This document shows, in pieces, positions 24,314 through 48,062 of a stretch of 64,000 nt of DNA; the stretch's first letter is position 1; each line of letters begins with the position of its first letter. The position numbers were made by a program, and so were the translations under genes. This DNA comes from Eledone cirrhosa (lineage: Eukaryota): NCBI GenBank assembly GCA_964016885.1, contig OZ024747.1, positions 23,312,001-23,376,000 on the forward strand. The letters are read 5' to 3'. The notes under the pieces were generated by a model. It saw nothing but the letters and a program-made list of their open reading frames with translations. It ran no database searches and was not told the DNA's origin.

Positions 24314-24356
<43 letters not shown>

Positions 24357-24501: not shown

Positions 24502-24684
24502 AACTATAGTAGGTAAAGTCAATTTTTTAAAATTTATTTTGAAACTTTTTCATTATTTGCTAAACCTTGTTTATATTTGTTCTGGCTCGTTAATTTATTA
24601 ACCTGCCATTGAACCACACTGGCATTTGGTTGGACAATACATGCGTACCTTAGCGCCTTGTGCGTGAAGGAACACATATCCTAT

Positions 24685-24721
<37 letters not shown>

Positions 24722-25277: not shown

Positions 25278-25561
25278 CACTATATTCTTCAGAAATATAA
25301 GAACTTTCTTTAAAGCAATACATAATATATATAATCAAAAAACATCACTAAATTTTCGTTAATCTAATTTGTTTATCTATTCAATATTATCAATTACAGC
25401 TTGCTCCATTTTTATAAGGAATCAACAGATTTAGTGTTGATAAGCGCGTGAAATTACTCATCTGCTTTTTTCCATTACTTTTTCGTATTCGTTCTGAATA
25501 TATATTTAAAAAGACAACATAACACATTTCATTTCTGAATGGTCCACTAAGCAGAACCAAA
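25278..25561 (+). promoter_or_regulatory. Putative LPMO1 proximal promoter/5' UTR (duplicated at 43137-43420)
   Basis: ~285 bp near-identical upstream of both LPMO ATGs. Contains TGATAAG (GATA), a TATATTTAAA TATA-like box at ~25500 and a TCATTTC Inr-like motif ~28 bp downstream. Confidence 0.55.
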
Positions 25562-25726
25562 ATGGTGTTGGCTTATTCTAGTTTGGTGTTTTTAGTTGGT
25601 TTATTTGTAGGAATTGAAGGTCATGGTCGACTTGTGGATCCCCCTTCCCGATCTAGTATGTGGAGATTTGGATTCAAGACTCCAGTCAACTATGACGATA
25701 TTGAACTATTTTGTGGTGGAATGACG
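25562..25726 (+). CDS. LPMO copy 1 exon 1 (signal peptide + His1)
   Basis: ATG...ATGACG|gtaaat. Confidence 0.93.
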
Positions 25727-26269
25727 GTAAATCATTTGCTATTTGTGTTTATCTTTACCCCTTTTGTACAATAATCATTATCTGCTGTTACATTCTGACT
25801 TCAAACATTTTTGTTTAGCACTGTTTTAGAATGAGAAAAAAAATAGAAAACCCGAGAAAGTGTGGTAATTTATTGGCTGATTATAATAAGTTGCAATTTA
25901 TTAGATTATTGCTATACACAGAAGTTCGTTGGCCCTCAAAAGGTGCATATGGAACTAGTTTTGTCGAACTATATGACAGACCTGTCAACTCTCTCCGTCC
26001 GACGGGGAGATCTCTCACCCACATTGAAGTGGGTGAGAGATGGCTTCTCTTGTGAAAATGGGTATAGCTTTCAGTATGTAAAATCTCCCCATTTTGCCTC
26101 ATTTCTCCCCGTTTGGGAGCACTTTTTTTTCATGGTACTCTCCGTTTTGGTTTTTATTTGGCAGGCGTTTTCAAAAACTTAATGAAATTAATTTACAGCT
26201 TCAATGAACCAATACTTATAAGTTTATTGAAAATTAATCTAAAATTAGAAGCTTCAACGCACGTGTATG

Positions 26270-26316
<47 letters not shown>

Positions 26317-26605
26317 ATAATATTGCCAAAAATAATAATAGAACATACTCACTGTTTGGTTTGGGTTGGTTTTCGCTGCTGTATCTTTTATATCTCCATA
26401 GTTAATTTATTTGGCAATCAATGATAAACATTGATTGCCAAACAGATTAACTATGGAAATATAAAAGATACAGAAGCGAAAACCAACCCCAACCAAACAG
26501 TGAGTGTGTTCTGTTATTATTTATGGCAATATTATAACAATATGACCCTCCCCAAGTACAACAATATTTGTTTCGACACACGATTTCATATCAAAAACTT
26601 TGCAA

Positions 26606-26678
<73 letters not shown>

Positions 26679-26779
26679 TGTTATACGTGGGGAGGATCAT
26701 ATTTGTGTAATATTGCCAGAATTAATAACAGAACACACTCACGTCTTTTCCGTCTATTTAATTAGAGTATCTTTTATAG

Positions 26780-26819
<40 letters not shown>

Positions 26820-27363
26820 AAATAACGAAACGAAATTAAATTTCGTTTCGCTTCTAACTCACTTTTGTATGACTGACGCTTAAACAATTAAGTTAAAGTG
26901 TACATCTACATATGTATACGGAAGTACTAGTATGCATATAAATACACATATGTATACATATGTACATGTACCGAGCTTTTTACTAGACACTTTACAGTGA
27001 GTGTCCAGCTAGTCTGTATGTAAACACACAGACGAACCGGGTTGAAACAATAGCAACGGGAGGAAACAATAGCACCACTGACGATGTTGCAGATGTGCAA
27101 CGAAAGAACTTTGATAAACTATATATATGTGTTTGTGTCTATATTGTATCTGTATTATTTTTGACCGTTGGTCAGTCAATGGCAACATTGAGGACCGATT
27201 AAATTAGATTACCGATATAAAAGACACAGAAGCGAAAAGCGAAAACCAACCAAACAGTGAGTGTGTTCTGTTATTAATTCTGGCAATATTACACAAATAT
27301 GACCCTCCCAAGTATAACAATATTTGTTTCGACACACGATTTCATATCAAAAACCTCGCAAAA

Positions 27364-27420
<57 letters not shown>

Positions 27421-30400
27421 CTATAAAAGATAGTCTAATTAAATGGACGGAAAAGAGTGGACAGAAACTTATAAGTTGCAAAATGTTTCAATATAAACTT
27501 GAATTTTTCCGTCTTAATATTCTAAAGATGGAATTTTCTCAGATTGCGGAATTGTTATCAAAGATGATGTAACTCTAGAGAAGATTGAAAGATTCAGTAG
27601 GTACTTCAAACAACTTAAATTAGATATGGAAGAAAAAACGATTTAACGACATGTATATTAGGAACATAACAAGGGTGATGAATAGCAGTGAATTCTGGTC
27701 GATAGTTTGATAGTGGCGGTATTTCAAGACGGAGTGACTGTGCGATATTTTCTATTTTTTGTGGGCTAGTTACGTTATTAAGGTATATGACTAGATTTTG
27801 CTGAGACTGATGTATCATGCGAAGAACAACTTTTAAAACTTAAAACTTAAATACAATGAAGAAAACAAATCGAATTTCAACAGTGCTAGATACGAAAATT
27901 TATTGGAAAATACAAAAATAAAAAATAAACCTTGTTCAAAATTCAACTATGTGGAATACAATATTTAATTTAGGGTTACCTTTCTTTACTATCTTGTTGA
28001 ATAAGGTAAATCATGTTGTCACCAAACAGAGAAACTGTCCGAAAATCATTGAAAGAGGGACCATCGTTTGTTCCATACGAAAATTGAACTATATACACAA
28101 CAGTTAGTTTCTCTGGATTAAACAACGATTTCATTAAATTAAATGTAATTTCAGTTTATATTCTTGGTTTATGTAAGGTAATTTCAAACAATTGTATTGT
28201 TTTTAACATATTAACAGAAGGAAGTTGGACGGTAAATTGGCAGAGCAGAGTCGTTAGAATGTCGGATAGAATGTTTTGTCTTATTCGTTCTGTCTCTTAA
28301 CGCTCTATGAGTTCAAATCCTTCCTAGGTAAACTCTGCCATTCATCTTTTCGAGTTTGACAAAAAAAACAAACAATACCAGTCCAGGTATTGGAGTAGAT
28401 TCTTCCTCTATATTTCTTTCTCACTTCTTCTCTACCCCGCTAACAAGATATCGATTGTGTTCAGACCATGAAACGTTATGGGTTTCGCCAGGTTTAGAAA
28501 ATGCCAAGACCCGTTGTACGTCGCTACGGTGCCCCTCCGCCCCCGTCAGGCGTTACATCCACAATGAAGGAAGACGGTATAATGAGGTCTAAGTAGTAGT
28601 GTGTCAAATTTAAAAAAAAATGGTATTAGGCCTGAGATTTCCATTCACGGATTTACTTTTTTTTTTTATTAGTCGTAAATACCAGAATCACTTCTAAAGT
28701 AGCTCAGTCATGGTTATCTTGGACTATATCACCAAATGTGTCCTTCCTTTTCTATAGTGTATCAGGATTCTATTTGTAGCGAGTCATAGGATCACATTGG
28801 TTTTTTAAACAAATGAGTTATTTGAAATTTGTCCTAATCCAATAAAATTAGGATTAAGTGACTTTCTTGCTGACAAATTCCCTTTCCCGGATATAAAGCC
28901 GGTTACCTAATCCGTTTGGTTGTCATAAATTATGTAAGATTATTTTGAACATTATAATATATAACATGCTATATTCTATAAATACAGGGTGTTCCAAAAA
29001 ATGTATACACACTTTGATTACCTGTACAGGCAATATTTATTAGAATGCTGTTGAAGTCTGTATACCTTTTTTGAGCACACGCTGTATGTTATAGTAATAT
29101 CCTGATTGGAATTTCATGACTGAAGAAGTTTAAAATGAAAAGCATTGTCGCACACACCAGCCACCACATGCAGCTCGAAGTCCAGATACAAATGCGACTT
29201 GAATCTAAATGAACTTTGAGGCTGAAGTTATATATTCCTAGTTAGTTTATTAGAACTTCTTGCTATATTAACTGGAGGGGCTTACACGTTTCTAGTTAAC
29301 TTATCAGAAACTCAAGCTATCTAAACAATATTAACAGGAGGTGGGAGGGCTTAAATGTTATACTGCGAGCTGACGAATCTCGTCAACACTGCAGTGTTGC
29401 CACTGCTTAAAATAACAAATAGTTTCTGCCCAGTATTCTAGATATTACCAAGTGAAATGAACCAATGTATTATATATTATAAAGTATTCTTCCCACCAAT
29501 GCAATGAAACAACAAGAACAAACTTGAAATCACAATTAACAAAAAGGCAGCCCAATACCTTATCTGTTTAACCACCTCGACTCTAATCATTAATCATCAT
29601 TGCCACCACCACCATCCTCATCACTTAACATCAGTTTTCTTTGCTAACAAGGGCTCAGCTGGTGGTCATGGACCAAATCAATATTTTATGAAAGCCATAG
29701 ACCTCTCAGACGGGCCTGTGACCTGCATATTCCTTACACACGTTCCCTGCATTTGACAGAGTATACTGGATGCATTTTATCGTAACTGTGGCACTATAGA
29801 GGTGGTGATGTCTTTGACACAGCCGAAGCGTTCTCTTGGTTTTTTCGTTTGATAAATTCTCTATGGTGGGATGCCCTTCCTATCACCAAACACTTTAAAA
29901 TCTAATTCTAGAACACTTCTGTAAATGTTTATGTAATTTTTCTCTAATCATTTTAACAGCATCAATGGGTTTTTAATCATGGAAAATGTGGAATATGCGG
30001 TGACGCTTATGAAGGACCACGAAAGAACGAAGCGGGTGGTAAATATGCAACCGGAACAATTAGTCGTTATTATCGTAAAAACCAAGTCATTAAGGTCGAT
30101 GTTGACTTGACCACCAACCATTTGGGTTGGTTTGAGTTCCGCTTGTGTCCAAACAACAATGTTAAGAAACCTGCCACACATGAATGCTTGAATAAATATC
30201 TTCTTCAACTGGCTAATGGCAACGGGACTAGGCTTTATGTTGGCAGCACAAAAGGACATATTTATACGAAAGTAAAATTACCTGCTGGTCTTACCTGCTC
30301 TCAATGTGTCTTCCAATGGAAATACCACACAGGTGAGTTGCTGTTTAATTAAAGGTGTAGTGTATGTAACAGGTATCACATTAGCACTTCATTGACTAAT

Positions 30401-31644
30401 TCTGTATATCCTAAATAACTGGCTCCATGACATTTATACAGTAGTGTAGCTAGGGGGATCGAGGGAGAGCGGTCTACCCCGGACAACATTCTTCTTTAAC
30501 AGGAAATTATTGAGCACTACGTTGTATTTTGGGGAATGAGTGGCAAACTCAAGGGTTGCCCCAGGCGGCACACTCTCAAGCTATGCTACTGTATTCATTG
30601 TTGCATTGTACAATAGCATACTACACATCGATAACATAAATACCAATCATATAGTAGAATCCCCTAAAATATATGGCCTGGAGTGAATATTAGGTGCTGA
30701 AAATAAAGTGTTGCTCAAGGGCACAACCCATCACCTGATCCGAGAATCAGACTCACAATCTCACGATTACAAGCCCAACGCTCTAACTACGAAACCATGC
30801 GCCTTCACGGTTCTGCTACCACTACATTAATAGCTTTTATTCCCAACTTATTCGACTATTTTCACAGTAAAAATGAAGTTACTTTGAAGCAGCTTATTAA
30901 AAACTAACATACTTTCAATAATTCAAAATTTACTCTACGTTTCTTGAATACAATTGATTTTTCGTTTACTTTCAACATATATGAGAACATTTTGTTATGT
31001 TATACATGCAATCTTAATAAAATTATAAATTTAGTAAATATTTTCCTTATTCTCCATTAATTAATTAAGATACAAAGTATTTCATTAGAAATACGGTTTA
31101 ACGAAAGGGTTAAATGATTTTGGAACAATTTTCATCATAGGTTTCTTTCACCTGGATTCCCATGGGATTTTACAGCAACCATTAAAATTCTGTTAAAATA
31201 CAACACTATCAAATGCTTAATATTTTTAATATCTGATTGTTTTTCTTTCTTCGATTTTTATTAGGAAACACATGGGGTGAAGGTAATAAATGTGTCGGAA
31301 TGGGATGTTCTGACGCACAAGAAGAATTCTATGGCTGTGCGGATATAGCCATCTTAGATAACGGCACACCAATTCCATCTATGATGTATTCACGAATTCG
31401 GCAAACATCACGCAAACCCCATTTCCGTATTACAACACCAGGTCATAAGAGACATTCTACAAAGTATCGAAGACCTTCAAGACATTCTACAAAGAATCGA
31501 AGACCTTCAAGACATTCTACAAGTAGCCCTCTAAACCGCAAGAACTGCCATGCTATTGGTGATTGGGCCGGTATCTATGACGACTGGTGCAGAGAGTTCT
31601 GTCCGAGGGGTAACTGTTTATCAACTATGTGTCGTTGTGACTGA
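25562..31644 (+). CDS. Secreted AA15-family lytic polysaccharide monooxygenase (chitin-binding type-4/LPMO domain), copy 1, ~305 aa
   Basis: Exons 25562-25726, 29960-30332, 31265-31644 (GT-AG, phases 0 and 1). 20-aa signal peptide, then mature His1 (HGRLVDPPSRSSMWR), NYDDIELFCGG, GKCGICGD, NHLGWFEFRLC (His89), CSQCVFQWKY and QEEFYGCADI. Basic linker and 6-Cys tail follow; AATAAA lies just after the stop. Confidence 0.95.
27074..27115 (+). ncRNA. Degenerate hammerhead ribozyme motif in LPMO1 intron 1
   Basis: CUGACGA-U-GUUGCA-GAUG-UGCAAC-GAAA: perfect 6-bp stem II, but stems I and III are weak or mismatched. Confidence 0.35.
28984..29085. mobile_element. Short Tc1/mariner-type MITE (TA|CAGGGTG...CTG|TA)
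   Basis: Inverted termini with TA flanks; partial relative at 43878-43946. Confidence 0.55.
29960..30332 (+). CDS. LPMO copy 1 exon 2
   Basis: ttttaacag|CATCAATGG...CACACAG|gtgagt. Confidence 0.93.
31265..31644 (+). CDS. LPMO copy 1 exon 3 (end of catalytic domain, linker, Cys-rich module)
   Basis: tttattag|GAAACACATGG...TGTGACTGA. Confidence 0.93.
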
Positions 31645-32637
31645 ATTACTTTAATAAAATATCATAAGGTGCTATAGCATTATTGTTGTTGTTGTTGTTG
31701 TTGTTTACACCCTAATAGAACAAAGGTATTAGAGCAGTAAATATCCCGCCTTTTATTTAAACCAGACATAGGCAATGTTTTCGAGTAGTGAACGGCAGGA
31801 GATACGGTTCATCATAAGGAAGACCGCTCTAATAAAAAATATCCAGCGTATTTTTAATTAGGTGTGCCTCTAAAAACCCAAACGGGAGTACCATGAAAAA
31901 AGGGCCCCGATTTTTACATAATGAAAACTATACCCATTTTCACAAAGTGGGTGGGAGATCTTCCCGTCGGACGGGGAGAGTTGACAGGTCTGCATTCCGA
32001 AAGTCAGACGGGCCGCAGTCTGATTTAAACATAAAGTATCGATAACTGTCTTCCTTTTCAAATGGTAAAGTATGATTTGAGGGAGACTTAATTGCTATTT
32101 CTAGCAGAGCAAAGTAACAACACACAGGCTCTGTTATTTGTATGTGTTTTAAGTGGTGCTATGAGATGATTGAAACATTTTACAATCTTCTGCAAAACCA
32201 GGCCATTCCCTGGTAAAGGTGGAGCAAGCCTCTAACTCTTCACCTATTTCTAAAAATCAGTTTAATATCGATGATCTCATGTAGGAATTGTTATATTAAG
32301 CTGATAAGAACAGATACTACATTTTGATTTTAGCCAAGAGTCGTATATTTTAGAATTAAAAAATTACTACGTAAGACATGGCTTCAGATAACTCTTAACT
32401 CCCTGTAATGATTTAGCCAAAAATATTTAAAAAGATGTTTGTTCATTCAAATGTTTATTGTATCTTTACTAGTTGACAGATTGAGGGGAACATTTTCAAT
32501 ATTAAAGTAAAGCCTTTAAATTTTAATGCGAGGAAGTCATAGTGCTGTTTTGTACTTTACAAGAATGCCGTGTTAATGTGGTTTCATGCGGTACAGGACT
32601 TTAGGAGCTAAAGTACAGCCAAGTGGGGAATTAACTG

Positions 32638-33678
32638 CTGTGGATTGGCAGTATCGGTAGAGGGTCGGACGCCATGCTTTCCAGCATAGTTACGTCCCTT
32701 TACGATCTGAGTTCAAATCCCGCCGAGGTTGACTTTGCCTTTCATCCTTACGGGGTCGATAAAATAAAGTACCAGTAATGAACTGGTAATTGCTGGCCTT
32801 GTGCCTAAAGTAGAAACAATTATTAAAAATAATAGTAGTGGTGGATTGGCAGTATCGGTAGAGGGTCGGACGCCATGCTTTGACGTATAGAGTTAGGGCC
32901 CTTGCCATTCTGAGTTCAAATCCCGCCGAGGTTAACTTTGCCTTTCATCCTTACGGGGTCGATAAAATAAAGTACCAGTAATGCACTGAGTAATTGCTGG
33001 CCTTGTGCCAAAAGTAGAAACAATTATTAAAAATAATAGTGGGGTGGTGGATTGGCAGTATCGGTAGAGAGTCGGGCACCATGCTTTGCAGCATATAGTT
33101 ACGGCCCTTTATGATCCGAGTTCAAATTCCGCCGAGGTTAACTTTGCCTTACATCCTTACTGGGTCGATAAAATAAAGTACCAGTAATGCACTGAGTAAT
33201 TGCTGGCCTTGTGCCAAAAGTAGAAACAATTATTAAAAGGTGTATGGAGAGCCAATAGGTAGGGGCAATACTATATTAATAATTCTTTCTAACAGCTCTG
33301 CAATTTGATGGGAGTGGGGGGAAGCCGATAAATCGACCCCAGTATTTGACTGGTACTTTATTTATTCGACTCCCATAAGGATGAAAGGCAAACTTCAGTG
33401 GGATTTGAACTCAGGACGTAAAGGGTAGTAACTCTATGCCGCTAAGTATTTTGTCCGACGCTCTACCAATATTACCAATCCAACGCCTTAATAATTATTT
33501 CTACTTTTGGCACAAGGCCAGCAATTATGCCAGTGTATTACTGGTACTTTATTTTATCGACCCCGCAAGGATGAAAGGCAAAGTTGACCTCGGCGAGATT
33601 TGAACTCTGACCATAAAGGGCCTTAACTCTTTGCTGAAAAGCATGGCGTCAGACACTCTACCGATACTGCCAATCTAA
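32638..33678. mobile_element. Cluster of tRNA-derived SINEs with Deu/Nin-like core: three head-to-tail + copies, then two - copies
   Basis: A-box TGGCAGTATCGG, B-box GAGTTCAAATCC, core gcctttcatcct..ggggtcgataaaataaagtacc. Many other copies, e.g. 3330-3520(-), 17425-17605(-), 18424-18612, 39975-40162, 40317-40535, 44802-44982, 47226-47642, 58674-58970, 63198-63373. Confidence 0.85.
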
Positions 33679-33895
33679 CGTAGGTACAAGGCTAAAAACT
33701 TGGTAGTAAGTAACTAATAAACATCTAGCAAGGCAGAGACGTTAGAACGTCGGATAGAATGCTTTATGGTAGTCGTTTCAGTTCTCTGTTGTCTCAGGTC
33801 AAATCCCACAAGGTCAACTTTGCCTTTCCTCCCTTCAAGGTCGATAAAAAAAGTACCAGTCTAATACTGGGTTCGATTCTTCCTCTATATCTCAT

Positions 33896-33926
<31 letters not shown>

Positions 33927-34682
33927 AACTTTCTATCCTTCTCTGGAAGAAATCTGCTGCATTCAGGCCCTGAAGAGGGGATGGGCTCCGCCAGACTTAA
34001 AGTGCCCAAGAAACGCCGTTAGTCATTACAGCGCCCCAATGACTCCATCAGGAGTTACGGGACCTTACCATACCCAAACATATAGTCCGACGCTCTACCA
34101 ACACCAACTGTACAAATAATTCTTTCTATAGCCGAGGCACAAGTCCAGAAATTTATGGGAATGATTAAATAAACTATTTAGATTTATGTGCTTTATTGAT
34201 TCTTTTCTTTTTGTGTGCGCCAAAGTTTAAATAAAATATATTTCTCTCTCACTCTCTCTTTTATATCCATCGGATGAATTCATACTTCCTGGGGAAGTGC
34301 AAGGCTTTAAGGTGGAATTTTCCAACAGAATTTATCACTAATGAGACAAAGTCAAACAGATTTTCCCCAACTTCTTTACTTCTCCATCATCAATTGATAT
34401 CCATTCTAAAGAATATTCGTTTCTAATTTAGGTACAAGGCCAGCAATGTAGGGGTGGGGGATAGCAAATTTGATGAAATCAATCCCAGTATTTGACTGGT
34501 ACTTTATTTTATCGGCCCCGAAAGGAAGAAATGCAAATTTAATCTCAGCAGGATTTGAACGTAAATACGTAATTAAATGCTGTGCTGCGTCTTGTCCGAT
34601 ATTCTATAGATTCTACCAATCTAATAGAAATTTGAGGGGAAGGAGAAAGTTAATTACATCGATCCCCTCTACTTAAATAGTA

Positions 34683-37600
34683 CAGGGGGTTCGAAAGTCT
34701 TGTCACCCCCTACCACGTCTTTTGTCCATGTCGTTATCGCTTAGTTCGTTGACGAATGATGGCTTAAACGATTAAAATGATTATATATTATAACTAACAG
34801 CTGAGCCCGGTTGCACCCGGGGCCACTTTTTATTAAGTTAATAATTTGAAAAATCTTATTGAAAGTTTATTATAAAGAAGCAGTATCAGGAAAAAAAATT
34901 AAAATGTGCACTTGGGGCTGGACGGCGTACAATGAGAAGTGGAGCGACGTGAAAAGCGTTGAGAGACGTTGAGTGGCGACGGAAGAGGAATGGCGGAAGC
35001 TTCAAAGGTGTTGTTGCAGTGCTTCTTTGTAGACAACGTTCCTGGTATTACCCGGATTACCACAAATGTAGAGATTGTGTGGACTGCTGAGGCGTGAGCA
35101 CTCGACGTATAGTTGACCGTGGGTAAATACCTGCTGTGTCAGATTTAGACCAACTACTTGCAGCGACTGTCCCTGTGCCTTGTTGATAATCATTGCAAAG
35201 CAGAGTTTTACGGGAAGCTGCCGTCTCGTAAAATCAAATGGGACGTCAGAGGGACTAAGGCTTATGGGGGATAATAACTTTGTCCCGCCAGCAGACGGTC
35301 CGCTCAGAATTTTTGTCGTAAGAATTCGTGTCCCAATTTTTTTGATGATCAGACGCGTCCCGTTGCATAGTTCTGGTGGTTCCACGTTTCTTAGCAGCAT
35401 AACTGGAACACCAACCTTCAGTCTAAGGTCATGAGGTGGAAGTCCGGGAGGTTGTTGACTGTTGAGGAATTCAATCGGATAGTTCACGGCGTCGTCCGCG
35501 TTTTTGTTGGTGTCAATTGACTTGAAGGAGACTTCACCTCCTGGAATCTGATCAAGCAGGTGGCATTATGTGGTGCTAAGATAGCTCTCCCTTGCAGCCA
35601 GTTGTGATCAAGGAATCGTGCTTCGAGGTCTGGGAAAACAGATGACATTAATTCCTCTATGCTTGATACAAAGTTTCCAAACGGCAGACGGATGTGCTGT
35701 TCATTGATTCCAGGTGTAGTTCCATTACCAACTTCCAGTAGCTGTTTTGAGAAATCTTCAGATTCTGCGTCGCCATGCACATGCACTCTCATGTTAGTAG
35801 TCAGGTTTAGTTTCTGGACATACTGCCATAGGTAGGAATACTTGATGCATGCGTTAACTTCGTCAGCTCTAGTGCCTCTAGTGATTACAGGAAGAGTCTG
35901 CCGAAAATCGCCAGCCATCAGTACTGTCGCTCCACCTATTACGTGTGAATTTCGACGCAAGTCCTTGAGAGTTTGGTCTAGAGCCTCAAATGCTGCCTTG
36001 TGACTCATTGTAGCCTCGTCCCAAATGATTAAACAGCACTCAGAAAGAAGGTATCCTTTAGAGTCTCCACGATTTATTCTGCAGGTAGGATTCTCTTTCT
36101 TTGCAAGGTTCATGGGCAATTGGAATGAGAGTGTGCCGTACGACCGCCATGTAACAGTGTCGCCGCAATTCTACTTGAGGCGACCGCTAAAGCAATCTGC
36201 CTGTCTTTCCGCAGCTTCGCAAGCAGTAGGTTTATGAGAAAGGTTTTTCCTGTTCCGCCTGGAGCATCCAAGAAGAATAGCCGTCCCTCATTTGAAATGA
36301 CACTGGCAAGAATTCTGTCATACGCCCGTCTCTGCTCAGGCAAAAGTCTGGGTTCATCTTGAGCAACCTTATCTGTCAATTCCTCGATCTTCTAATTCAC
36401 ACTCAAGCATGAACTCCACATCTAAAGCACCGTCTTTATGTACAGGTTGTGGCAAACCAAATTCTAATACACCGCCAACTCCAACAGATCTTAGACGTTT
36501 ATCCATGTCAATGAGGGCCTCATTGTATACATTGGCGTTGTAATGAAAGTCAGCCGCTGGTGCCCTTGCTCGTACTCTACGCAGGATGTCCTCTGACATT
36601 CTGTCCTTATGCATTTCTCATAGCTTAAGTGGCTCACCGACATTGCAGAACAGTAACATATTGCAAAACAAACGACGCATTTCTCGTGGCATTTTACATT
36701 CAGCAGCTTCTGTCAATGCCATGTTCAGGTGGTTATCGTCCTCGAGTAGCCCGCGCTTCATGCAAGCCTCCCTGTAAGTGGAACAAATGTAGCCGTCTGA
36801 AAGTCTGAGGTCGGTAAATGACTTGGGTCCTTTGATTCGATGGAGCAGCATTCTCAAAAAAAAAGCATTCCTGTTGCTTCGGATGAACGTTGTACACACG
36901 TCCGATGGCATTACTTTTGAATACACCTGCCCAATTCTCAACTGCCTCCCCCTGTCGCCGCCGATGCCAATTTTTGTTCGACCAAGTGAAGTAGGTTGGT
37001 AACTCGACGTAAAAGAGGGTAAGTGCAAACTCATCGACAGAGCAAAGCTTAAACAATGCTGTAAGAGTCGTCTCTGGTGGCTGTTGTGCAGCAAGTGTGG
37101 CGTTTTCCTCCGTGAAATAAACACGCTGTCCATTCTGTAAGTGAACATCCAAGTTAACAACTGTAGGAGAGCACTTGTGAATCTCAAGTACAAAAATGCG
37201 CCAAGCCGCCATATTGGACGAAATGTACCTTCCCATCACGTATTGATTAATTTCGTCTGTCGGTTGCACGAGGCCCACCACCGCCATGTTGCCGCCTTTG
37301 TTGATGTATTTGCAAATGTATTTAATGCTTTTGACAGATGTGCAGCACTCCACGTTGATGTGAGCATTGAAAATTTTAGCAAGCAAAGGGCTATAGCAAG
37401 AGGGGCCTCTATATATTAGACGTTTATTAGAAGAGGTGGAAATAACCAACCCCAGTATTAGAACAGGGGGTTCGCAATGTAAGGGTTTTATTTCTTTTGA
37501 TAGAAAACAGTGACCTTTTTCGGTTTGGCATTTCGTAAAATTCTACTGCAGGATCGATTTCATAAAACGGTACTGTATGATCGTTATAGAAGTATTTAAA

Positions 37601-38415: not shown

Positions 38416-40973
38416 TACTTTATTTTATCGACTCTGAAAGGATGGAAGGTAAAGTTGACTTCAGTAGGATTTGAACTCAGAATGTAAAGAGTCAGAACAA
38501 ACATTGCAATAGCATTTTATACATCCTCAATAATATTAGCAATAGGTATACCCATCCTTCCTAAATATTTCAATCAAGTCACTGTCATGACAGACATTGA
38601 CTGCATCATACTGTTAACCTCTAAGGAGCAGAAAATAAACATCCCCTTGTCCTTTTGTGAATGTTCGATTAAAATCTCTTGTTCGTTCATGACAAAAATC
38701 GCCGTCTCTTGAAAAAGATTGTGGATGATGTACCAAATGCGATTATGTTAATGTATTCAGTGGTGTTGCTAGAGTGTGTGCCATCCGGGGTAGCCCTTCA
38801 TTTTTATCCCCAAACCTGTAAACTCTCCCCGCCCGACGGGAAGATCTCCCACCCACTTTGAGGTGATCGAGAGATGTTTTCTCTTATGGAAATAGGTATA
38901 GCTTTCATTATTCAAAGTCTCCCCCATTTTGCCTCATTTCTCCCCGTTTGGGAGCACTTTTTTCATGGTACTCCCCGTTTGGATTTTTAGAGGTTGGCAA
39001 GCCTGTATCTATCCTGGCCCCGATAAAAATATTGCACAATGACTCCCTCCTAAGGTTATAAAGCAATACAGCCTATACAGCAGTCATGGATAAAGTGCGG
39101 TCCGCTTGGCTTTCTAAATGGCACGCTTAATTTCAAAATTGCCTTGAATTTTTTAGTAGTGTAACCCGCCTTATGATGATCCACATCCTATGCGGCCCAC
39201 TGCTTGAAAAAGGTTGCTCATGCCTGCAATGAACAAAAGTGCCACCCCGTAAAGTGTCACCTCCCTAGCAACACTACTGAGTATATTAGTTCTGTTTGTT
39301 TCTTGCAGTTTGTAATATGTTAACCATTTATATCGTTGGTTTATTTATTTATTTATTTATTATATCGGCCCCAACCAGTAGTTTTCTCAGACTCTGGAAG
39401 ACCTGCCAACTCCTAAGAACCCAAACGGGTGAGTACCATGAAAAAAGTGCCCCAAAACGGAGAGAAATTAGGCAAAATGGGGAGATTTTACATAATGAAA
39501 GCTTTACTCATTTTCACAAGAGAAGACATCTCTCACCCATCCCAAAGTAGGTGAGAGATCTCCCCATCAGACGCTGAGAGTTCTCATGTCTGTTCTGATT
39601 TTTATATAACCTAAACAATGGTCGTTGTTGTTGATTGAGATCTACTAATGTATTGCATTTTGAACTTAATCAAAGAAAAAGAATGCTGAAGAACTACTGC
39701 CAAAAGATGGGATTGGTAAATATCAAGAGTACCCACAGTTATATCCACCACCACATCATTATCATCCCCAATGCATTACAGTTGTAAATACCAGGAGATA
39801 AACAGCTGCAGGTCATTGCCATTTCTCATGACCTAAAAAGCATCGACAAATATTTACAACCAAGTTTATATAACTAGCATTGTGATACATCAGCTTTATT
39901 TATGTCTATTTATTTGTTCTTTGTTCTACAAATTTCGGGGTCTTCAACCAAAATGCGAAATCATTATCATAATTGGTGGATTGGCAGTATCGGTAGAGGG
40001 TCGGACGCCATGGTTTCCAGCAAAGTGTTACGGCGCTTTATGGTCTGAGTTCAAATCCCGCCGAAGTTAACTTTGCCTTTCATCCTTACGGGGTCGATAA
40101 AGTAAAGCACCAGTAATGTACTGGGATTATTGCTGGCCTTGTGCCAAAAGTAGAAACAATTATTTATATAATTTCCAATCTGTGAAAATTATGCCTAAGT
40201 TGTAAGAAAGTGCCAATTTCCTTCCTGGAGGAAGAGACTACATATGTATAGAAATATAATTGCTTCTACTTTTGGCACAAGGCCAGCAATTAACCCAGTA
40301 CATTACTGGTGCTTTAGGGCGGTGGATTGGCAGTATCGGTAGAGGGTCGGACGCCATGGTTTCCAGCAAAGTGTTACGGCCCTTTATGGTCTGAGTTCAA
40401 ATCCCGCCGAAGTTAACTTTGCCTTTCATCCTTACGGGGTCGATAAAATAAAGCACCAATAACACACTGGGTCAATTTAATCGATATTCCCGTCTCCCAA
40501 ATTACAGGCCTTGTGCCTATACCAGAAATCATTATTGAATTGGGAAGACCAAAGCCATCTAGTATAATGGTTATCGCAGCCGCCTGGCGTACGGAAGGTT
40601 CGTAGTTCGATTTCTGCAGAAGAGTCTCAGTCCAATCTTTTCCGTCTCCAAATGTAACTTACCCGACTTATGCGATTGGGAGAATCGTTAGAGCGCCAGA
40701 AAAAATGTTTTATCACATTTGTTCCGGCTCGTTACATTCTGAGTGCAAATCTCGTCGAGGTCGATTTTTACCCTTCATCATTCCGCGGTCAATAAATTAA
40801 AGTACCAGTCAACTACTGGGGATGTAATAATCGACTTTCCCAACCTACCTCCAAAAGCTCTGCGCTAATATTAGAAAAAAAAATTATTATTATTGTTGTT
40901 TGTGATTAATTGATATCTGTAACGGAGTTTTAGAGAAACACTCGGTTTTACCATGTTTTATTTGATGAAAAAA

Positions 40974-41011
<38 letters not shown>

Positions 41012-42717
41012 CCCGCCGAGGTTAACTTTGCCTTTCATCCTCACGGGGTCGATAAAATAAAGTACCAGTAATGCACTGGGATAATTGCTGACCTTGTACG
41101 AAAAGTAGAAACAATTGCTAACAAGTATCTTTAAGACGGTTGAAGGTCCATTCTATTAAATAGAAATAAAAAATTAAGTTTTATTTTAGTCATTTGATAT
41201 ATTTTCATATTTTTGTCAAACATTGTTTATTAGTAATTCAATATGGTCGACTCTGGTCGAGCAGGAAGCAATGTTAGCTACAAACATGACAGCATCAAAC
41301 ATACGAACATTTTGAATACTTTTTAAAACATGTTGTAAACAAAAACTTATATTAAAAAAAAAACAGGTAAAAAATGATGTCAACTAAACGAAGACAATTG
41401 TGAATGCAGATATTTTAATAAATACGGAAGAAAAAAATGAGAAAAAGTAGCGATATTTTTCATTTTTTTTTAATAAAGTAAGAACCACATAGAGGCTTTC
41501 TGTCCAGAAGTTTTGGAAACGCAGAAGAGAAAAGAAGACAGCGGACAACAACAGAGGCTACAACAAGCACGGTAGGTCCACAAAGCTGCTTTAGCAGGAT
41601 ATAAAATAATGACCATAATATTTGTATCAACAGAGGTCACCAATATAGCAAACATTTAATAGTCACCAGTTTAGCTGTTAAATAATATTATGCCATGTAA
41701 TAATAATATCAACGACAATAATGTATTTTGTTGTAACAGGAAAGGTATGGTTTTGTTAGTAGAATTGAGGTTCGGTTGGAAGTCTCGGGTTCTGTTGCTG
41801 CAGTGATAATAACTCTGGAAAGGATCTTTCCATATCACGAGACTTTACAATGTTTTTACATATTTTATTTACAAACCGATTATAAAGGTTGAGCTGGCAC
41901 GCCAAACAAAGAAATAAACAAATTAAGAGTTTAGTAGGTACGGTCGACTGGCCGAGGTGCTGGCCAAGCCATAGTTATGTTGTTGTCGTTACATATTGGC
42001 TAGTGGTCAACGGCAAAAGAAAAATGGTGTTTACCTTTCCACTGTCGAAGCAACAAAAGAAAGAGTTTTTCGAAAGTAGCGGGAAAATCTCCGTTTGGGC
42101 GGAAGTTGAAAATACATATCCGTGCGCGGCTCACGATTGGCCTGACTTAGCCAAATCACGCACGAATAGCCTATCAATGCGCCAAAGGAAACTAGCTTGC
42201 TACACCGCTGTTTCTGGAGCACCGTTAGACGCAACTCCGAAAGTAGCAAAAGAAATGGTCCCAGCCTCAACAGAAGCAGTGAAACTGACAGACACACAGA
42301 AAAAAAATCACTGCGGCCATACATACTAACCAGTATTTTCTTCCCAAACTAACAAAACACATCTATTTGTATATGCGCTACAATTTATGTACATGTTATG
42401 TTTATCACATATTGAAGTTTTTCTCACCATTTTAGAGTGCAAAAAGCTAAACTACTCACTACAACTAAATTGTCCAAATTTGGTTCCCCCCTCCCCACCA
42501 ATTCAGAAATGCTTCCACCACCCCTACTCCAGGAGCCAATAGTCAGAAGGAGCACCAAGAAACCGAGTGATCTCCGCGCTCTGCACGGAGCCGGCTGGAG
42601 GCCACAAACAATAATGCTATTTCATCACCTTACGACGATGTGGAGGAAAGTGGAGTTAGAGAGGTATGGAAAATTATTGGGGGCTATGGTGCTCAAGATG
42701 AGACAACTGCTTCTTAC

Positions 42718-43110
42718 CCAGAGTACCGGTCGCTCTCCGACAGGTTTGCGGCTGTACCCTTGGTAGTGGAGACTTTTGGTGTCCTTGGCCCTAGGGTTAC
42801 CTCCCTACTTACCACCATAGACGCTGAGCTGGCGAGTCGCAGGTGTGAGCCTCGCGAGATGGAACGGCTCTTCCAACGCATCTCCCTTACAATCCTCCGG
42901 GGAAACGCTTTGTCCATTCTGTCCGCCGGGGCTGTGGGATTGCCAGCACGTGGGACTCCATTTGCTTACTATACAGAGAGATGGGGAGGGCGAGAAAGAT
43001 GAGGGCGATGACGGTGGGAGTTAGGCTCTTCCACGTTCGGACACATGTCAAGAGTGTATTTTCATACTTGTAACTGGGTTATATATATTAGAAGTAAGGT
43101 TTAACTAACA
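42718..43110 (+). mobile_element. CRE-like non-LTR retrotransposon 3' fragment (restriction-like endonuclease C-terminus)
   Basis: PLVVETFGVLG...RE..RLFQRISLTILRGNALSIL; related remnants at ~48700-49215 and 49585-49780. Confidence 0.65.
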
Positions 43111-43136
43111 CACCAATTTATTTTCTCCTCTGCATC

Positions 43137-43420
43137 CACTATATTCTTCAGAAATATAAGAACTTTCTTTAAAGCAATACATAATATATATAATCAACAA
43201 AGATCATTAAATTTTCGTTAATCTAATTTGTTTATCTATTCAATATTATCAATCACAACTTGCTCCATTTTTATAAGGAGTCAAAAGATTTAGTGTTGAT
43301 AAGCGCGTGAAATTACTCATCTGCTTTCTTCCATTACTTTTTCGTATTCGTTCTGAATATATATTTAAAAAGACAACATAACACATTTCATTTCTGAATG
43401 GTCCACTAAGCAGAACCAAA
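43137..43420 (+). promoter_or_regulatory. Putative LPMO2 proximal promoter/5' UTR
   Basis: Near-identical paralogous copy of 25278-25561. Confidence 0.55.
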
Positions 43421-43585
43421 ATGGTGTTGGCTTATTCTAGTTTGGTGTTTTTAGTTGGTTTATTTGTAGGAATTGAAGGTCATGGTCGACTTGTGGATCC
43501 CCCTTCCCGATCTAGTATGTGGAGATTTGGATTCAAGACTCCAGTCAACTATGACGATATTGAACTGTATTGTGGTGGAATGACG
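43421..43585 (+). CDS. LPMO copy 2 exon 1
   Basis: ATG...ATGACG|gtaaat; only 2 nt differ from copy 1. Confidence 0.93.
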
Positions 43586-43812
43586 GTAAATCATTTGCTA
43601 TTTGTGTTTATCTATATATACATACATTATACATATGACCTTGTGGCTAAAGAAGAAATTATCATTAGTAATATCTATTATAATCATAATCATATTACAT
43701 TTTCTTGTTAAATTCTGCTGTCGGAAAATGTTGACGTTGCGATTAAGTAAATGTCAATGCTTTAATCGATAGAACTTCTCACTTCTACCACATACTACAC
43801 TTTAGAGATGTG

Positions 43813-43863
<51 letters not shown>

Positions 43864-44352
43864 TATATCCACAAAACTGATTACCTGTACAGGCAATATT
43901 TATTAAAATTCTGTTGAAGTGTGTATACATTTTTGGGACACCCTGTGTATATATATATTTTTTTATCCCGAGTTCAATCGGGGGTAACCACAGTAAGTAT
44001 GATACTCAATACATAGCAGAGTATAAATATTTAATATAGAAATGGCTTCTACAGGACTAGAACTGTTTCCTGATGATTTCTCCCGAATGAAACAGTTCTA
44101 GTCCTTTAGAAGCCATTTCTATATTATATATATATATACATACATATACATACATATAAATAAATATTGACATACCCTGAAAAAAGACTTTTTTCAGTGT
44201 ATGTCAATATTTATTTATAAAATTAATCTGTATTGTATTTTATCTGATGAAAGCACACCATAATTTGCCTTGGTGGCCCTTGAAATATGTATAATAAAAT
44301 AAATATGGTTTTATAAATATAGTTTCCATTTGTTAATATATTGTATATATAT

Positions 44353-44393
<41 letters not shown>

Positions 44394-44604
44394 AATTAGT
44401 ATATCTACCAACATATATATACACAGATGCATACCTATGCTATCAAATATATAGGTTTGTCTTAGTAACTTTGTGGTTCAATGCATGGGGATGCAGAACA
44501 ATAATATGAAAGACGTAAAATAAGAAAATTACCTCTGCGTCGGTGGCAAATTCAAAAAGAATCAATCACGTGACATCGCGGTCAATCAGTGGAAAGTGGT
44601 TTGT

Positions 44605-44635
<31 letters not shown>

Positions 44636-47600
44636 AGGTGTGTATGTGTGTAAGTAGAAATCTTGCCAAAACAAGGTTGAGTGGACTCTTCAGTTGTGTT
44701 AAGAGCATGGCAACATCTCTAGAGTTGGTAGGAAAGACACCTACCCATATAGGAATTGTGCTGGGGTTATGTTTGAAACACATCTATGTTCAAGTTTTAT
44801 TCGATTGGCAGTATCGGTAGAGGGTCGGACGCCATGCTTTGACGCATAGAGTTACGGCCCTTGCCATTCTGTGTTCAAATCCCGCCGAGGTTAACTTTGC
44901 CTTTCATCCTTACGGGGTCGATAAAATAAAGTACCAGTAATGCACTGGGATAATTGCTGGCCTTGTGCCAAAAGTAGAAACAATTTTTTTTTTTTTTTTT
45001 CATATTTTTATATGAGACCCTTGCAGTTCGCTTTGAAAGTAAAGTTTCTCATTCTACAGTCAACATTTTTCAACTGACTTTTGTCAAGTGACTTTTGTCA
45101 ACTGACCTTTGTCAACTGACCTTTTTATAATAAGAAAATGTGATATGAGTATATTTTACCAGAAAACATTGACAGTAAGATTTATACATCTTACATAGAC
45201 AAGTGTTTATTTTGTTTAAGATGTGTGTATGTTGCTTCTTTAAGATTGTGTTGTATTATGAGCGGTGCTTTAATAATTAATCGTCAATTTTCATGAGTAA
45301 TTCTGTCTTAGGTTGAATAGTAAGTGCTTTTTTAACATTAGGAACATTTTACAAGTCAAAACATCTGTTGCGATTACTGTCTGCCATCGTTTAAGAATGC
45401 ACGTGATTCCATCTCTTTAGAATTCTTCTGGCTTCGACGCAAAGAATTCCGTCAGTCATTGATTGAACTGATCTTCATTGCGAAAGTCTTTGGCTGCATT
45501 GCATTGCTCGTTGAGAGAAAACGGTGATAATTTGTAGGCGTGAGGTCGGGCGAATACGGCGGGTGGAGCAGAACCCCCCCCCCCTATCTTCAGCAGCTTC
45601 CCACAGCTCATCCTTGTTGTATGTGGTCGAGTGTTATCATGAAGGAATCGAACGTGACCATCGTGTGGGCGCACCTGTGCAATTTTCACCGCTAATCTTT
45701 CAAATTGTGAGCAATAGAGGTCAGAGTGCTGGTGTTCTGTGGGAGCAGCTCGTAGGGGATGACGTCTTTCCAGTCCCACCAGACGCCCAATAGATGATTT
45801 ATGGTACAAGCTCGTAGTGTATGACGTCTTTCCAGTCCCACCAGACGCCCAATAGATGATTTATGGTACAAGCTCGTAGTGTATGACGTCTTTCCAGTCC
45901 CACCAGACGCCCAATAGATGATTTATGGTACAAGCTCGTAGTGTATGACGTCTTTCCAGTCCCACCAGACGCCCAATAGATGATTTATGGTACAAGCTCG
46001 TAGTGTATGACGTCTTTCCAGTCCCACCAGACGCCCAATAGATGATTTATGGTACAAGTATTTATCAGTTTGATGTCTCTTTTTGTATTGAATTCTCGAC
46101 AAGTCGAACTTCGTTTTTAATCCCACCATTCATTAAAATAAATGACTGACATATCGATGTTGATCCAATCGATTACATACACTACTTTCCAACATAAATT
46201 GATTTTGTGCCTAATCGAAAGAATCAGCTAACAATTTTTGTGTATGTTCTTTTTTGTTTTATTAGCATCAATGGGAAACTAATCATGGAAAATGTGGAAT
46301 ATGTGGTGACCCTTATGAAGGACCACGACAGAACGAAGCAGGTGGTAAATATGCAACCGGAATAATTAGTCGTTATTATCGTAAAAACCAAGTCATTAAG
46401 GTTGATGTTAATATTGTAAACAACCATTTGGGTTGGTTTGAGTTCCGCTTGTGTCCAAACAACAATGTTAAGAAACCAGCCACACAAGAATGTTTAGATA
46501 AATATCTTCTCCAGCAGGCTGACGGCAGTGGTAGTCGAATTCACATCGGCAGAACAACTGGCCATATTTACACCAAAGTAAGGTTACCGGCCGATCTGAC
46601 CTGTTCTCAATGCGTCTTCCAATGGAAATATCATACAGGTGAGCTTTCTAACATAATTTTATTTCTCGTTCTAGAGTCAAATCTGGCCATTAGTAGCGAG
46701 TTCGTATTCAGCCAGAAGCAGGTGTCCTCCATTAACCCTTTTCTGAATATCAAGATTTTACACGACCTGGCGTTTTATCTTCAGTTAGATAGAACACTGA
46801 TCTACTCCGGCTCACTGTGCTCCGAGTTCATATCCTGCCGAAGTTAACTTTACTTTTCATCCTTTCGAGGTCGATAAATAAAGCACCGATCCAATTCTTG
46901 TGTCGTTTCTATCTCTCTATCTCTTTATCTCTTGCCCTTTCTCTCCTTACCTGAAAGAAATCGGGTGTGCTCAGACATGGAGAGGGACGGGCTCCACCAG
47001 GTTTAAAATGCCCAAGACACGCCGTATGTCAGGACTGTGTCCCTTCGATTCCATCAAGAGTTAAAGGCCCTTAACCTATATGTCACAAGTAGCTGTCATA
47101 GGCACAGATGGCGTCGAACAAATGAAATAAAATACCAGTCAAATACTGGGGTTCGATATAACCGACTTTCTCCTTCCCCCAAATTTCTGATTTTGTGCCT
47201 ACATTAGAAACTATAATAATAATAATTGGTGAATTGGCAGTATCGGTAGAGGGTCAGACGCCATGCTTTCTAGCATAGTTATGTCCCTTTATGATCTGAG
47301 TTCAAATCCCGCCGAGGTTAACTTTGCCTTTCATCCTTACGGGGTCGATAAAATAAAGTACCAGTAATGTACTGGGTAATTGCTGGCCTTGTGCCAAAAA
47401 GTAGAAACAATTATTATTTACATTTAATGAGGGCGGTGGATTGGCAGTATCGGTAGAGGAACGGACGCCATGCTTTGCAGCATAGAGTTACGTCCCTTTA
47501 TGATCCGAGTTCAAATCAAACTGAGGTTATCTTTGCCTTTCATCCTTACGGGGTCGATAAAATAAAGTACCAGTAATACACTGGGGTCAATTTAATCGAC

Positions 47601-48062
47601 TTTCCCCTCCCACCGAGAATTGCTGGCCTTGTGCCTATATAGGCATTATTTACATTTAAAAATTAGCAGTTAATTCTTAGTATTTATCACTACCGACAGT
47701 AAACCCCTGAGTAAAACATACACGTTTTTCTTTTAGGTAACACATGGGGTAAAAGTGACAAATGTGTTGGAATGGGATGTTCAGATGCCCAGGAAGAATT
47801 TTATGGTTGTGCAGATCTAGCCATCTTGGATGACGGTGTACCAATTCCATCTACATTTCCACGAACCCGCAAACCTCATATTCACATTACAACACCCAGA
47901 CATCGGAGAACATCGCCACGACCTTCAAGACATTCCACAAGAGGCCCTCTAAAACACAAGAACTGCCATGCTATTGGTGCTTGGGTCGGTATCTATGACA
48001 ACTGGTGCAAAGACTTCTGTCCGAAGGGTAGCTGCCCATCAAATATGTGTCGTTGTGACTGA
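43421..48062 (+). CDS. Secreted AA15-family lytic polysaccharide monooxygenase, copy 2, ~287 aa
   Basis: Exons 43421-43585, 46266-46638, 47737-48062. Intron positions and phases are the same as copy 1; His brace, QEEFYGCADL and 6-Cys tail are intact; AATAAA at ~48070. Confidence 0.95.
44236..44301 (+). ncRNA. Type I minimal hammerhead ribozyme motif in LPMO2 intron 1
   Basis: Stem I UAUUUUAU/AUAAAAUA; CUGAUGA (44244-50); stem II AAG..CACCA/UGGUG..CUU; GAAAU-AUGU-AUA with AUA cleavage triplet (44291-93). Confidence 0.6.
45340..46058 (-). mobile_element. Mariner transposase remnant in LPMO2 intron 1
   Basis: VWWDWKDVIHYEL, FLHDNTRPH and PPYSPDL motifs; degenerate. Confidence 0.85.
45748..46058. 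repeat. 62-bp tandem repeat (x5) of mariner coding sequence
   Basis: tacaag at 45805, 45867, 45929, 45991 and 46053. Confidence 0.92.
46266..46638 (+). CDS. LPMO copy 2 exon 2
   Basis: ttttattag|CATCAATGG...CATACAG|gtgagc. Confidence 0.93.
47737..48062 (+). CDS. LPMO copy 2 exon 3
   Basis: ttcttttag|GTAACACATGG...TGTGACTGA. Confidence 0.93.

What the first reader, a model, noticed from the sequence alone, without database searches (positions are those of the whole stretch)
25562..48062. Tandem animal AA15 LPMOs that both lack the conserved copper-site alanine
Seen: two intact secreted LPMO genes with mature His1, His89 and Glu-x-Phe at the axial site (QEEFYGCAD). The usual T-A-N-H motif reads T-T-N-H in copy 1 (30110-30121) and V-N-N-H in copy 2 (46416-46427). 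Mature residue 34 after CGG is Met in both. Known (recalled, to be confirmed by alignment): in Thermobia TdAA15A and chitin-active AA10s an Ala two residues before the second His (Ala89/His91) gates the solvent-facing axial copper position, and Phe34 lies on the substrate-binding face. Inference: Thr or Asn here could change copper coordination, regioselectivity or substrate. This may be an undescribed cephalopod LPMO subtype, for example for oxidative attack on crustacean prey cuticle or remodelling of beak and radula chitin.
Basis: partly seen in the sequence, partly recalled or inferred. Interest (0 to 1): 0.75.

Follow-up and report, generated by a model that had tools for sequence, protein, structure and literature searches.

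The report
Octopus chitin-cutting copper enzyme pair
Two neighbouring octopus genes encode copper enzymes predicted to cut chitin: the first carries a copper-site change already present in a tested insect enzyme and is ordinary, while the second carries a much rarer change, also read in sequencing runs of related animals, that likely tunes its activity without abolishing it.

Summary
Both genes are real, intact three-exon AA15 LPMOs of an octopod (His1, His89, Glu179-x-Phe181, ten Cys). Residue 87 aligns without gaps to TdAA15A Ala89. The claim that losing this Ala marks an undescribed subtype fails for copy 1. TdAA15B, the chitin-specific, C1-oxidising AA15 tested in the family's founding paper, has the same T-T-N-H. 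Thr stands there in 20 of 64 sequences of that paper and in 40 of 373 domains retrieved here. Met34 is also unremarkable. Copy 2 stays unusual. Asn occurs in 1 of 373 domains, and the Thr before it (Thr/Ser in 367 of 373) is lost too. Runs from four related organism labels hold the same pair, T-T-N-H plus K-N-N-H. The two copies are nearly identical on both sides of this loop, which suggests gene conversion that spared it. Best reading: two chitin-active, C1-oxidising enzymes, with copy 2 tuned at the copper-side loop and likely kept distinct by selection. No activity, copper geometry or tissue was shown, so the prey-cuticle and beak ideas are untested. The scan earlier noted other AA15 loci of this genome, but not this sequence.

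The parts
25562..25726 (+). Copy 1 exon 1: 20-residue hydrophobic leader (signal peptide inferred), His1 at 25622-25624, Tyr24, Ile27, Met34
   Evidence: His1 of the O. sinensis orthologue P0001 aligns to His1 of 5MSZ
29960..30332 (+). Copy 1 exon 2: core of the AA15 domain (Pfam LPMO_10, E 3.3e-13)
30110..30121 (+). Copy 1 Thr86-Thr87-Asn88-His89; the same motif as the characterised TdAA15B
31265..31644 (+). Copy 1 exon 3: Trp163, Glu179-x-Phe181 (31321-31329), basic Ser/Thr/Pro-rich linker of 62 aa (17 K+R, 1 D+E; contains a 30-base tandem repeat at 31450-31522), six-Cys end module (31543-31641), stop
43421..43585 (+). Copy 2 exon 1: His1 at 43481-43483; 163 of 165 bases identical to copy 1
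46266..46638 (+). Copy 2 exon 2: core of the AA15 domain (Pfam LPMO_10, E 7.3e-12)
46416..46427 (+). Copy 2 Val86-Asn87-Asn88-His89, the rare variant; part of a divergent island (codons 84-87, 46410-46421)
47737..48062 (+). Copy 2 exon 3: Trp163, Glu179-x-Phe181 (47793-47801), basic linker of 44 aa, six-Cys end module (47961-48059), stop
25274..25757 (+). Upstream region plus exon 1 of copy 1, 472 of 484 bases identical to 43133-43616: likely gene-conversion tract
43133..43616 (+). Partner of that tract at copy 2

Best explanation
The two genes are tandem octopod paralogues encoding intact AA15 histidine-brace proteins, predicted to be secreted copper enzymes that likely oxidise crystalline chitin at C1; copy 1 has the same copper-side motif as the tested enzyme TdAA15B, and copy 2 carries a rare Val-Asn loop that likely tunes binding or turnover without changing the basic reaction. 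Shown: gene structure, brace residues, Glu-x-Phe, ten Cys, motif identity with TdAA15B, rarity of the copy-2 loop, and the same Thr/Asn pair in runs of related organisms. Inferred from the family: cleavage of the leader exposes His1; His1 and His89 hold one copper; Tyr24 and Trp163 flank a flat face that docks on chitin; after reduction, H2O2 or O2 is activated near Glu179; the chain is cut, opening it to chitinases; the basic linker and six-Cys module tether the enzyme. Inferred from sequence patterns: the duplication is older than the split from Octopus-like species, the copies have since exchanged their 5' halves by gene conversion, and the loop at residues 84-87 escaped because selection keeps the two loops different.
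For: TdAA15B has T-T-N-H and E-x-F and gives C1-oxidised products from chitin only. Phe at the axial site and Trp at the Tyr166 position match the chitin-type insect enzymes. A model of the orthologue P0001 (90% identical to copy 1 over the domain; mean pLDDT 86) matches 5MSZ best, TM 0.91 by target length, E 4.8e-24. AA10s with Gly at this site are active (PMC6767633, PMC12385910), and one with Ile has been characterised (PMC10107554). Both frames are constrained: pN 0.069 against pS 0.342 over mature 1-190. Silent differences between the copies are 5 of 109 codons outside the loop up to residue 107, against 27 of 66 in residues 108-195 (Fisher p 2.8e-9). Eight of the 21 mismatches in the first 381 coding bases lie in one 12-base window; 0 of 20,000 shuffles reach that. 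At 8 of 15 listed sites both copies here share one base and both contigs of run X9 share another. Runs X7, X18, X5 and X9 (4 studies, 4 organism labels) each hold a T-T-N-H and a K-N-N-H contig; both X9 contigs continue into exon-1-like sequence, so they are spliced.
Against: No activity, copper or tissue data exist here. No enzyme with Asn at this site was found characterised in the papers seen. Copy 2 also lacks the His-3 Thr of the T-A-X-H chitin-recognition motif described for AA10s (bioRxiv 2022.04.15.488525), which argues for a larger change than tuning. The shuffle test ignores codon structure and clustered mutation, and a divergent patch can itself block conversion without selection. 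Argonauta P0002 resembles copy 2 more than copy 1 in residues 108-195 (16 against 22 differences) yet has T-T-N-H, and the small tree does not resolve its orthology (supports 56-62). The protein searches returned no named Octopus protein with the Asn loop. X7 and X18 show the same listed differences and may be one species. The Asn codon of X9 is read from a cut table. The tool only guesses that these runs are RNA.
Confidence: 0.55

Rival explanations
1. Copy 2 has changed function: loss of both Thr86 and Ala87, with Ile27 in place of the usual Asn, reshapes the surface beside the copper, so that it acts on another substrate (cellulose, chitosan, protein-bound chitin) or with another regioselectivity.
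For: His-3 is Thr or Ser in 367 of 373 domains and His-2 is Asn in 1 of 373. T-A-X-H is described as a chitin-recognition motif in AA10s. TdAA15A, active on cellulose and chitin, also lacks the His-3 Thr (Q-A-P-H). Position 27 is Ile in 5 of the 293 domains that cover it. The loop stays different in two lineages.
Against: Axial Phe, Trp163, Tyr24 and Glu179 remain chitin-type. Chitin-active CbpD departs from such motifs, and that preprint doubts their predictive value. Ile27 is shared with copy 1. The match of position 27 to the AA10 Gln could not be tested, because the profile reached no AA10.
Confidence: 0.2
2. The loop differences are neutral. The site tolerates many residues, and the patch simply fell outside the conversion tracts, so the two copies are equivalent dosage duplicates.
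For: 90 of 373 domains have something other than Ala at His-2, spread over ten other residues, with 25 parsimony steps on a 195-sequence tree. Position 86 differs among Asn copies (Val here, Lys elsewhere), as does residue 34 (Met here, Ile in the X9 Asn contig).
Against: The Asn codon is unchanged between this genome and the related runs while both neighbouring codons differ. Four of six codons in the patch change the amino acid.
Confidence: 0.17
3. Copy 2 is a copper- or chitin-binding protein with little catalytic activity, because the Asn amide fills or ligates the open apical copper site.
For: Asn is longer than Ala and polar, at a position said to restrict the solvent-facing axial site. 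One published Asn case, Hyalella XP_018020658.1, is divergent and lacks the Glu before the Phe.
Against: Glu179, Phe181, both His and all Cys are kept, and P0189 has Asn with an intact His1 and E-x-F. No model of copy 2 with copper could be made.
Confidence: 0.06
4. The oddity is an artefact: an assembly error, or A-to-I RNA editing that turns the copy-1 Thr codon ACC into Ala in the transcript.
For: A-to-G at the first base of ACC gives Ala. Coleoid cephalopods recode widely (recalled).
Against: Two contigs of DNA run X22 carry the copy-2 motif. The loose ends of the likely RNA contigs read Thr codons, and the Asn codon is unchanged. Database orthologues of three Octopus species and Argonauta have Thr. 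Contigs drop rare variants, so minor editing is not excluded.
Confidence: 0.02

Closest known systems
TdAA15B (Thermobia domestica GASN01010363.1; PMC5823890, passages, section 11 and supplementary file 1 parts 3-5 read)
   Same: T-T-N-H motif as in copy 1, Tyr24, Trp at the Tyr166 position, Glu-x-Phe; C1 oxidation of alpha- and beta-chitin, none on cellulose
   Different: Catalytic domain only, Tyr34 and Asn27. The octopod proteins have Met34, Ile27, a basic linker and one six-Cys module; copy 2 has V-N-N-H
TdAA15A (PDB 5MSZ)
   Same: Fold, His brace, ten Cys, Glu two residues before the axial aromatic; the only solved AA15 reached by sequence
   Different: Ala89, axial Tyr184, Tyr166, Phe34, Gln at His-3; active on cellulose and chitin
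Insect group I LPMO15-1 (TcLPMO15-1, OfLPMO15-1; PMC9156745, passages read)
   Same: Axial Phe, Trp at the surface edge, C-terminal six-Cys module
   Different: Keeps Ala (A109); two six-Cys repeats spaced 15-3-(6-9)-4-1, against one module spaced 13-3-4-4-1 here
AA10 LPMOs with a non-Ala second sphere: TtAA10A (Gly; PMC6767633), SdLPMO10A (Gly; PMC12385910), PlAA10 (Ile; seen only as cited in PMC10107554 and PMC12385910)
   Same: Natural replacement of the apical Ala in characterised His-brace enzymes
   Different: Bacterial family; Gly or Ile, not a polar amide; no case with Asn in the passages read
Octopus sinensis XP_029641028.1, O. bimaculoides XP_014785156.1, O. vulgaris CAI9728616.1, Argonauta hians GAB1603118.1 (uncharacterised database proteins)
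   Same: 83-90% identical to copy 1 over the catalytic domain, T-T-N-H, Met34, Ile27, same architecture
   Different: None has the Asn loop; none is characterised in the papers searched

Membership tests
AA15 LPMO | N-terminal His exposed after a signal peptide | tested here: met
   His follows a 20-residue hydrophobic leader in both copies, and His1 of the orthologue aligns to His1 of 5MSZ. Cleavage is inferred; no signal-peptide predictor was run.
AA15 LPMO | Second brace His | tested here: met
   His89 aligns without gaps to His91 of 5MSZ
AA15 LPMO | Axial Tyr or Phe with Glu two residues before | tested here: met
   Glu179-x-Phe181 in both copies; matches Glu-x-Tyr184 of 5MSZ through P0001
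AA15 LPMO | Ten conserved cysteines in the catalytic domain | tested here: met
   Cys 31, 45, 48, 98, 111, 148, 151, 169, 174, 184 in both; feature stated in PMC5823890
AA15 LPMO | Sequence and fold closest to TdAA15A among solved LPMOs | tested here: met
   Exon 2 against 5MSZ E 3.6e-31. Model of orthologue P0001 against 5MSZ E 4.8e-24, next hit 4.4e-6. The window's own spliced proteins were not folded.
AA15 LPMO | Copper binding and reductant-dependent oxidative cleavage of polysaccharide | not testable with these tools
   Needs recombinant protein
AA15 LPMO | Ala two residues before the second His (common, but shown here not to define the family) | tested here: not met
   Thr in copy 1, Asn in copy 2. 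It is also absent in the characterised TdAA15B and in 90 of 373 domains.
Chitin-specific Phe-type AA15 (TdAA15B-like) | Axial Phe, Tyr24 and Trp at the Tyr166 position | tested here: met
   Phe181, Tyr24 and Trp163 in both copies
Chitin-specific Phe-type AA15 (TdAA15B-like) | Thr or Ser three residues before the second His | tested here: inconclusive
   Met in copy 1 (Thr86), not met in copy 2 (Val86); Thr/Ser in 367 of 373 domains. Its role is described for AA10 only.
Insect group I LPMO15-1 | Two C-terminal six-Cys repeats, C-X15-C-X3-C-X6-9-C-X4-C-X1-C | tested here: not met
   One module spaced 13-3-4-4-1; definition from PMC9156745

The most novel reading that the evidence does not exclude
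Copy 2 founds an octopod-specific AA15 subtype. An Asn amide at the solvent-facing apical copper position, with loss of the chitin-gripping Thr, gives it a different substrate, regioselectivity or copper geometry, and selection has shielded that four-codon loop from gene conversion with its conventional neighbour. The pair would be a natural matched experiment on what the LPMO second sphere does.
Probability: 0.2. Interest if true: 0.6.

Novelty: new variant of a known kind. Interest (0 to 1): 0.3.

Why it matters
The Ala beside the LPMO copper is often called conserved and is said to gate the axial site. This check shows that Thr is a routine, active alternative in AA15, so copy 1 adds nothing new. 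Copy 2 offers a natural Asn variant beside a closely similar Thr paralogue (10 amino-acid differences over residues 1-107), kept apart in more than one octopod lineage. That makes a clean two-protein test of second-sphere effects. The paper searches made here showed no characterised cephalopod AA15, so it would also open cephalopod LPMO biochemistry.

Tried and rejected
Thr as a novel residue: rejected. Met34 as a marker: rejected. It is Met in 4 of 120 first hits, of which 3 are in the cephalopod-like clade, in three published insect sequences, and Ile in the X9 Asn contig. Haplotype false duplication: rejected; the intron flanks are unrelated and exon 2 is 82% identical in protein. RNA editing back to Ala: not seen in contigs, which cannot show rare variants. 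Expression in this species: no RNA holder listed, which is no evidence either way. Three protein searches (the best 120 of 139, the best 120 of 562, and all 58) and one representative search (best 150 of 2,130) returned no named Octopus protein with the Asn loop. The word index and length limits make that weak. A search for LOC115215892 in papers gave 0. Searches for Ala-site mutagenesis papers gave nothing usable, and three papers asked for by id were not held, so Munzone 2020 and Forsberg 2018 were seen only as cited by others. The alignment profile reached no AA10 structure, so residue 27 could not be mapped to the AA10 Gln-Thr pair. No copper model of either copy was made. No further close tandem copy was found in the genome: exon 2 gave 8 matches with 2 close, and the start of exon 3 gave 2 matches. 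A look-up of earlier scan notes by sequence found nothing. Of the supplements, only file 1 of PMC5823890 (parts 3-5 of 5, plus a search) was read; those of the other papers were not opened and could list further Asn cases.
Full report
Observation. Two three-exon genes lie on the + strand, about 18 kb apart, with GT-AG introns and open frames of 305 and 287 residues. Each has a hydrophobic leader, His1, His89, Glu179-x-Phe181, ten catalytic-domain Cys, a basic Ser/Thr/Pro-rich linker and a six-Cys end module. The motifs are T-T-N-H at 30110-30121 and V-N-N-H at 46416-46427, and residue 34 is Met in both. Exon 2 matches Pfam LPMO_10 and TdAA15A (5MSZ, E 3.6e-31), with residue 87 aligned without gaps to Ala89. 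The nearest named proteins are from Octopus sinensis, O. bimaculoides, O. vulgaris and Argonauta, so the source is an octopod. A model of the O. sinensis orthologue of copy 1, built on 68 sequences, matches 5MSZ far better than any other structure. The genome holds six further exon-2 matches: five with Ala at His-2 and one without the His.

Thr is ordinary. I counted by eye the residue two before the second His in all 64 sequences of supplementary notes 2-7 of the founding paper (PMC5823890): Ala 41, Thr 20, Val 1, Lys 1, Asn 1. Thermobia alone has Thr in 8 of 23. One of them is TdAA15B, which reads L-T-T-N-H and which the paper shows to give copper-dependent C1 products from alpha- and beta-chitin and none from cellulose. 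Drosophila DmAA15B has the same motif. Of 380 proteins retrieved here, 379 aligned, giving 387 domains, of which 373 keep the second His. Among these: Ala 283, Thr 40, Val 21, Ser 18, Lys 3, Gln 2, Gly 2, Asn 1, Met 1, His 1, Glu 1. This set is redundant and biased to close relatives. The 150 representatives at 50% identity give 145 such domains, with Ala 110, Ser 12, Thr 11, Val 6 and no Asn. On a tree of 195 full domains (partial ones dropped, P0189 among them), Thr tips form 12 separate groups, in clams, spiders, lobster, snails and octopods. The octopod clade sits beside an unnamed T-A-T-H family, so its Thr is a derived state. Met34 is no marker either.

Asn is rare and real. It appears in 1 of 373 retrieved domains (P0189, with His1 and E-x-F intact) and in 1 of 64 published sequences (a divergent Hyalella protein). 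Copy 2 also replaces the Thr at His-3, which is Thr or Ser in 367 of 373 domains and belongs to the T-A-X-H chitin-recognition motif described for AA10s (bioRxiv 2022.04.15.488525, passages and section 11). DNA run X22 holds two contigs across the motif that differ by one silent base, which fits two alleles; this run may be the window's own sample. Four further runs of four studies and four organism labels (X7, X18, X5, X9) each hold two contigs, one T-T-N-H type and one reading D-L-K-N-N-H. The reading is firm for X7 and X18, where one contig spans the stretch. It rests on a loose end for X5 and on a cut table for X9. In X9 both contigs run on into exon-1-like sequence, so they are spliced. 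The Asn contig continues as A-D-G-S-G-S-R-I like copy 2, and the Thr contig as N-G-N-G-T-R-L like copy 1. The pair is therefore older than the split between these species. No RNA run of this species was listed, and tissues are not disclosed.

History of the pair. The upstream region and exon 1 are 472 of 484 bases identical between the copies, whereas the intron flanks of exons 2 and 3 are unrelated. Silent differences are 5 of 109 codons up to residue 107 outside the loop and 27 of 66 in residues 108-195 (p 2.8e-9). Over 46280-46476, outside the loop, the copies differ at 6 bases, while copy 2 differs from the X9 Asn contig at 20 or more. At 8 of 15 listed sites both copies here share one base and both X9 contigs another. 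This is the pattern of gene conversion. Within the homogenised part, 8 of 21 mismatches fall in the 12 bases of codons 84-87 (0 of 20,000 shuffles). Selection for a distinct loop is the simplest reading, but it is inferred: clustered mutation, or a patch that blocks conversion, could give the same picture. Argonauta P0002 is nearer copy 2 in the 3' half yet has T-T-N-H, and its orthology is unresolved. Overall pN 0.069 against pS 0.342 shows constraint on the pair.

Mechanism. By family knowledge, the leader is removed, His1 and His89 bind one copper, the flat face with Tyr24 and Trp163 docks on chitin, and Glu179 positions the oxygen co-substrate. Axial Phe and Trp163 match chitin-type AA15s (PMC9156745 and PMC8393829, passages). 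For copy 1 the TdAA15B precedent makes C1 chitin oxidation likely. For copy 2 no tested precedent was found. AA10s with Gly at this site are active, and an Ile form has been characterised (PMC6767633, PMC12385910, PMC10107554, passages). All catalytic residues are kept, so tuned chitin activity is most likely (0.55). A changed substrate or regioselectivity (0.2), neutral variation (0.17), a non-catalytic binder (0.06) and artefact (0.02) follow. Disordered C-terminal extensions are common in AA15 (32%; PMC8615602, passages). The single six-Cys module resembles, but does not fit, the insect group I repeat. PMC11210479 was read in passages and added nothing.

Verdict. Copy 1 is an ordinary member with a tested twin motif. 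Copy 2 is a rare, conserved loop variant worth an assay, but there is no sign yet of new chemistry. The ten paper searches cover only open-licence PubMed Central and bioRxiv, so a characterised mollusc AA15 or an Asn-type LPMO in a subscription journal would have been missed.

Noticed in passing
run X14 laid on window 46429-46500: Contigs over the conserved part of exon 2 have depths of 17,000-25,000, against 20-190 in the three other runs of the call. This hints at very high expression in one tissue, but the tool warns that depth is a poor measure, the motif is not covered and the tissue is undisclosed.
   Followed up: no
window 35002-37542, minus strand: Broken PIF1-type helicase frames (Pfam PIF1 E 7e-39, Pif1_2B_dom E 3e-17), likely a Helitron remnant, lie between the two LPMO copies.
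   Followed up: partly
exon 1 of both copies, mature residue 27: The octopod clade has Ile27 where most relatives have Asn or His (Ile in 5 of 293 domains that cover it). It may face residue 86 on the binding surface, but this could not be tested.
   Followed up: partly
L008 (G000:C2:154075174-154075524): An AA15-like exon without the second His (L-F-Q-Y), about 360 kb from an Ala-type AA15 exon, L003.
   Followed up: no
L006 and L004 (G000:C9:39233594 and C9:39261607): A second pair of AA15 exons, 28 kb apart on opposite strands, both Ala-type; L006 has an extra intron in the exon-2 region.
   Followed up: no
window 4418-7372 and 18818-21991: Two low-complexity GT-rich arrays of about 3 kb with extreme strand skew (GC skew up to 0.96) that give stop-free frames near 1,000 codons in several phases; likely satellite, not genes.
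   Followed up: partly
window 7499-8455, 13410-13815, 45747-46058, 32640-33238: Minisatellites of 96, 40 and 62 bases, and a tandem of a roughly 200-base interspersed repeat that recurs many times in the window; the 62-base array lies in intron 1 of copy 2.
   Followed up: no
window 51184-54820 (+) and 11059-12718 (-): Frames of a gag-pol-like LTR retroelement (RVT_3, DUF7047, weak RVT_1) split by stops and frameshifts, and a LINE-like reverse transcriptase with an embedded PHD finger.
   Followed up: partly
bivalve homologues such as P0046, P0068, P0072, P0073, P0195: A supported clade with Val at His-2 (T-V-N-H) in clams and mussels, another untested second-sphere variant.
   Followed up: no
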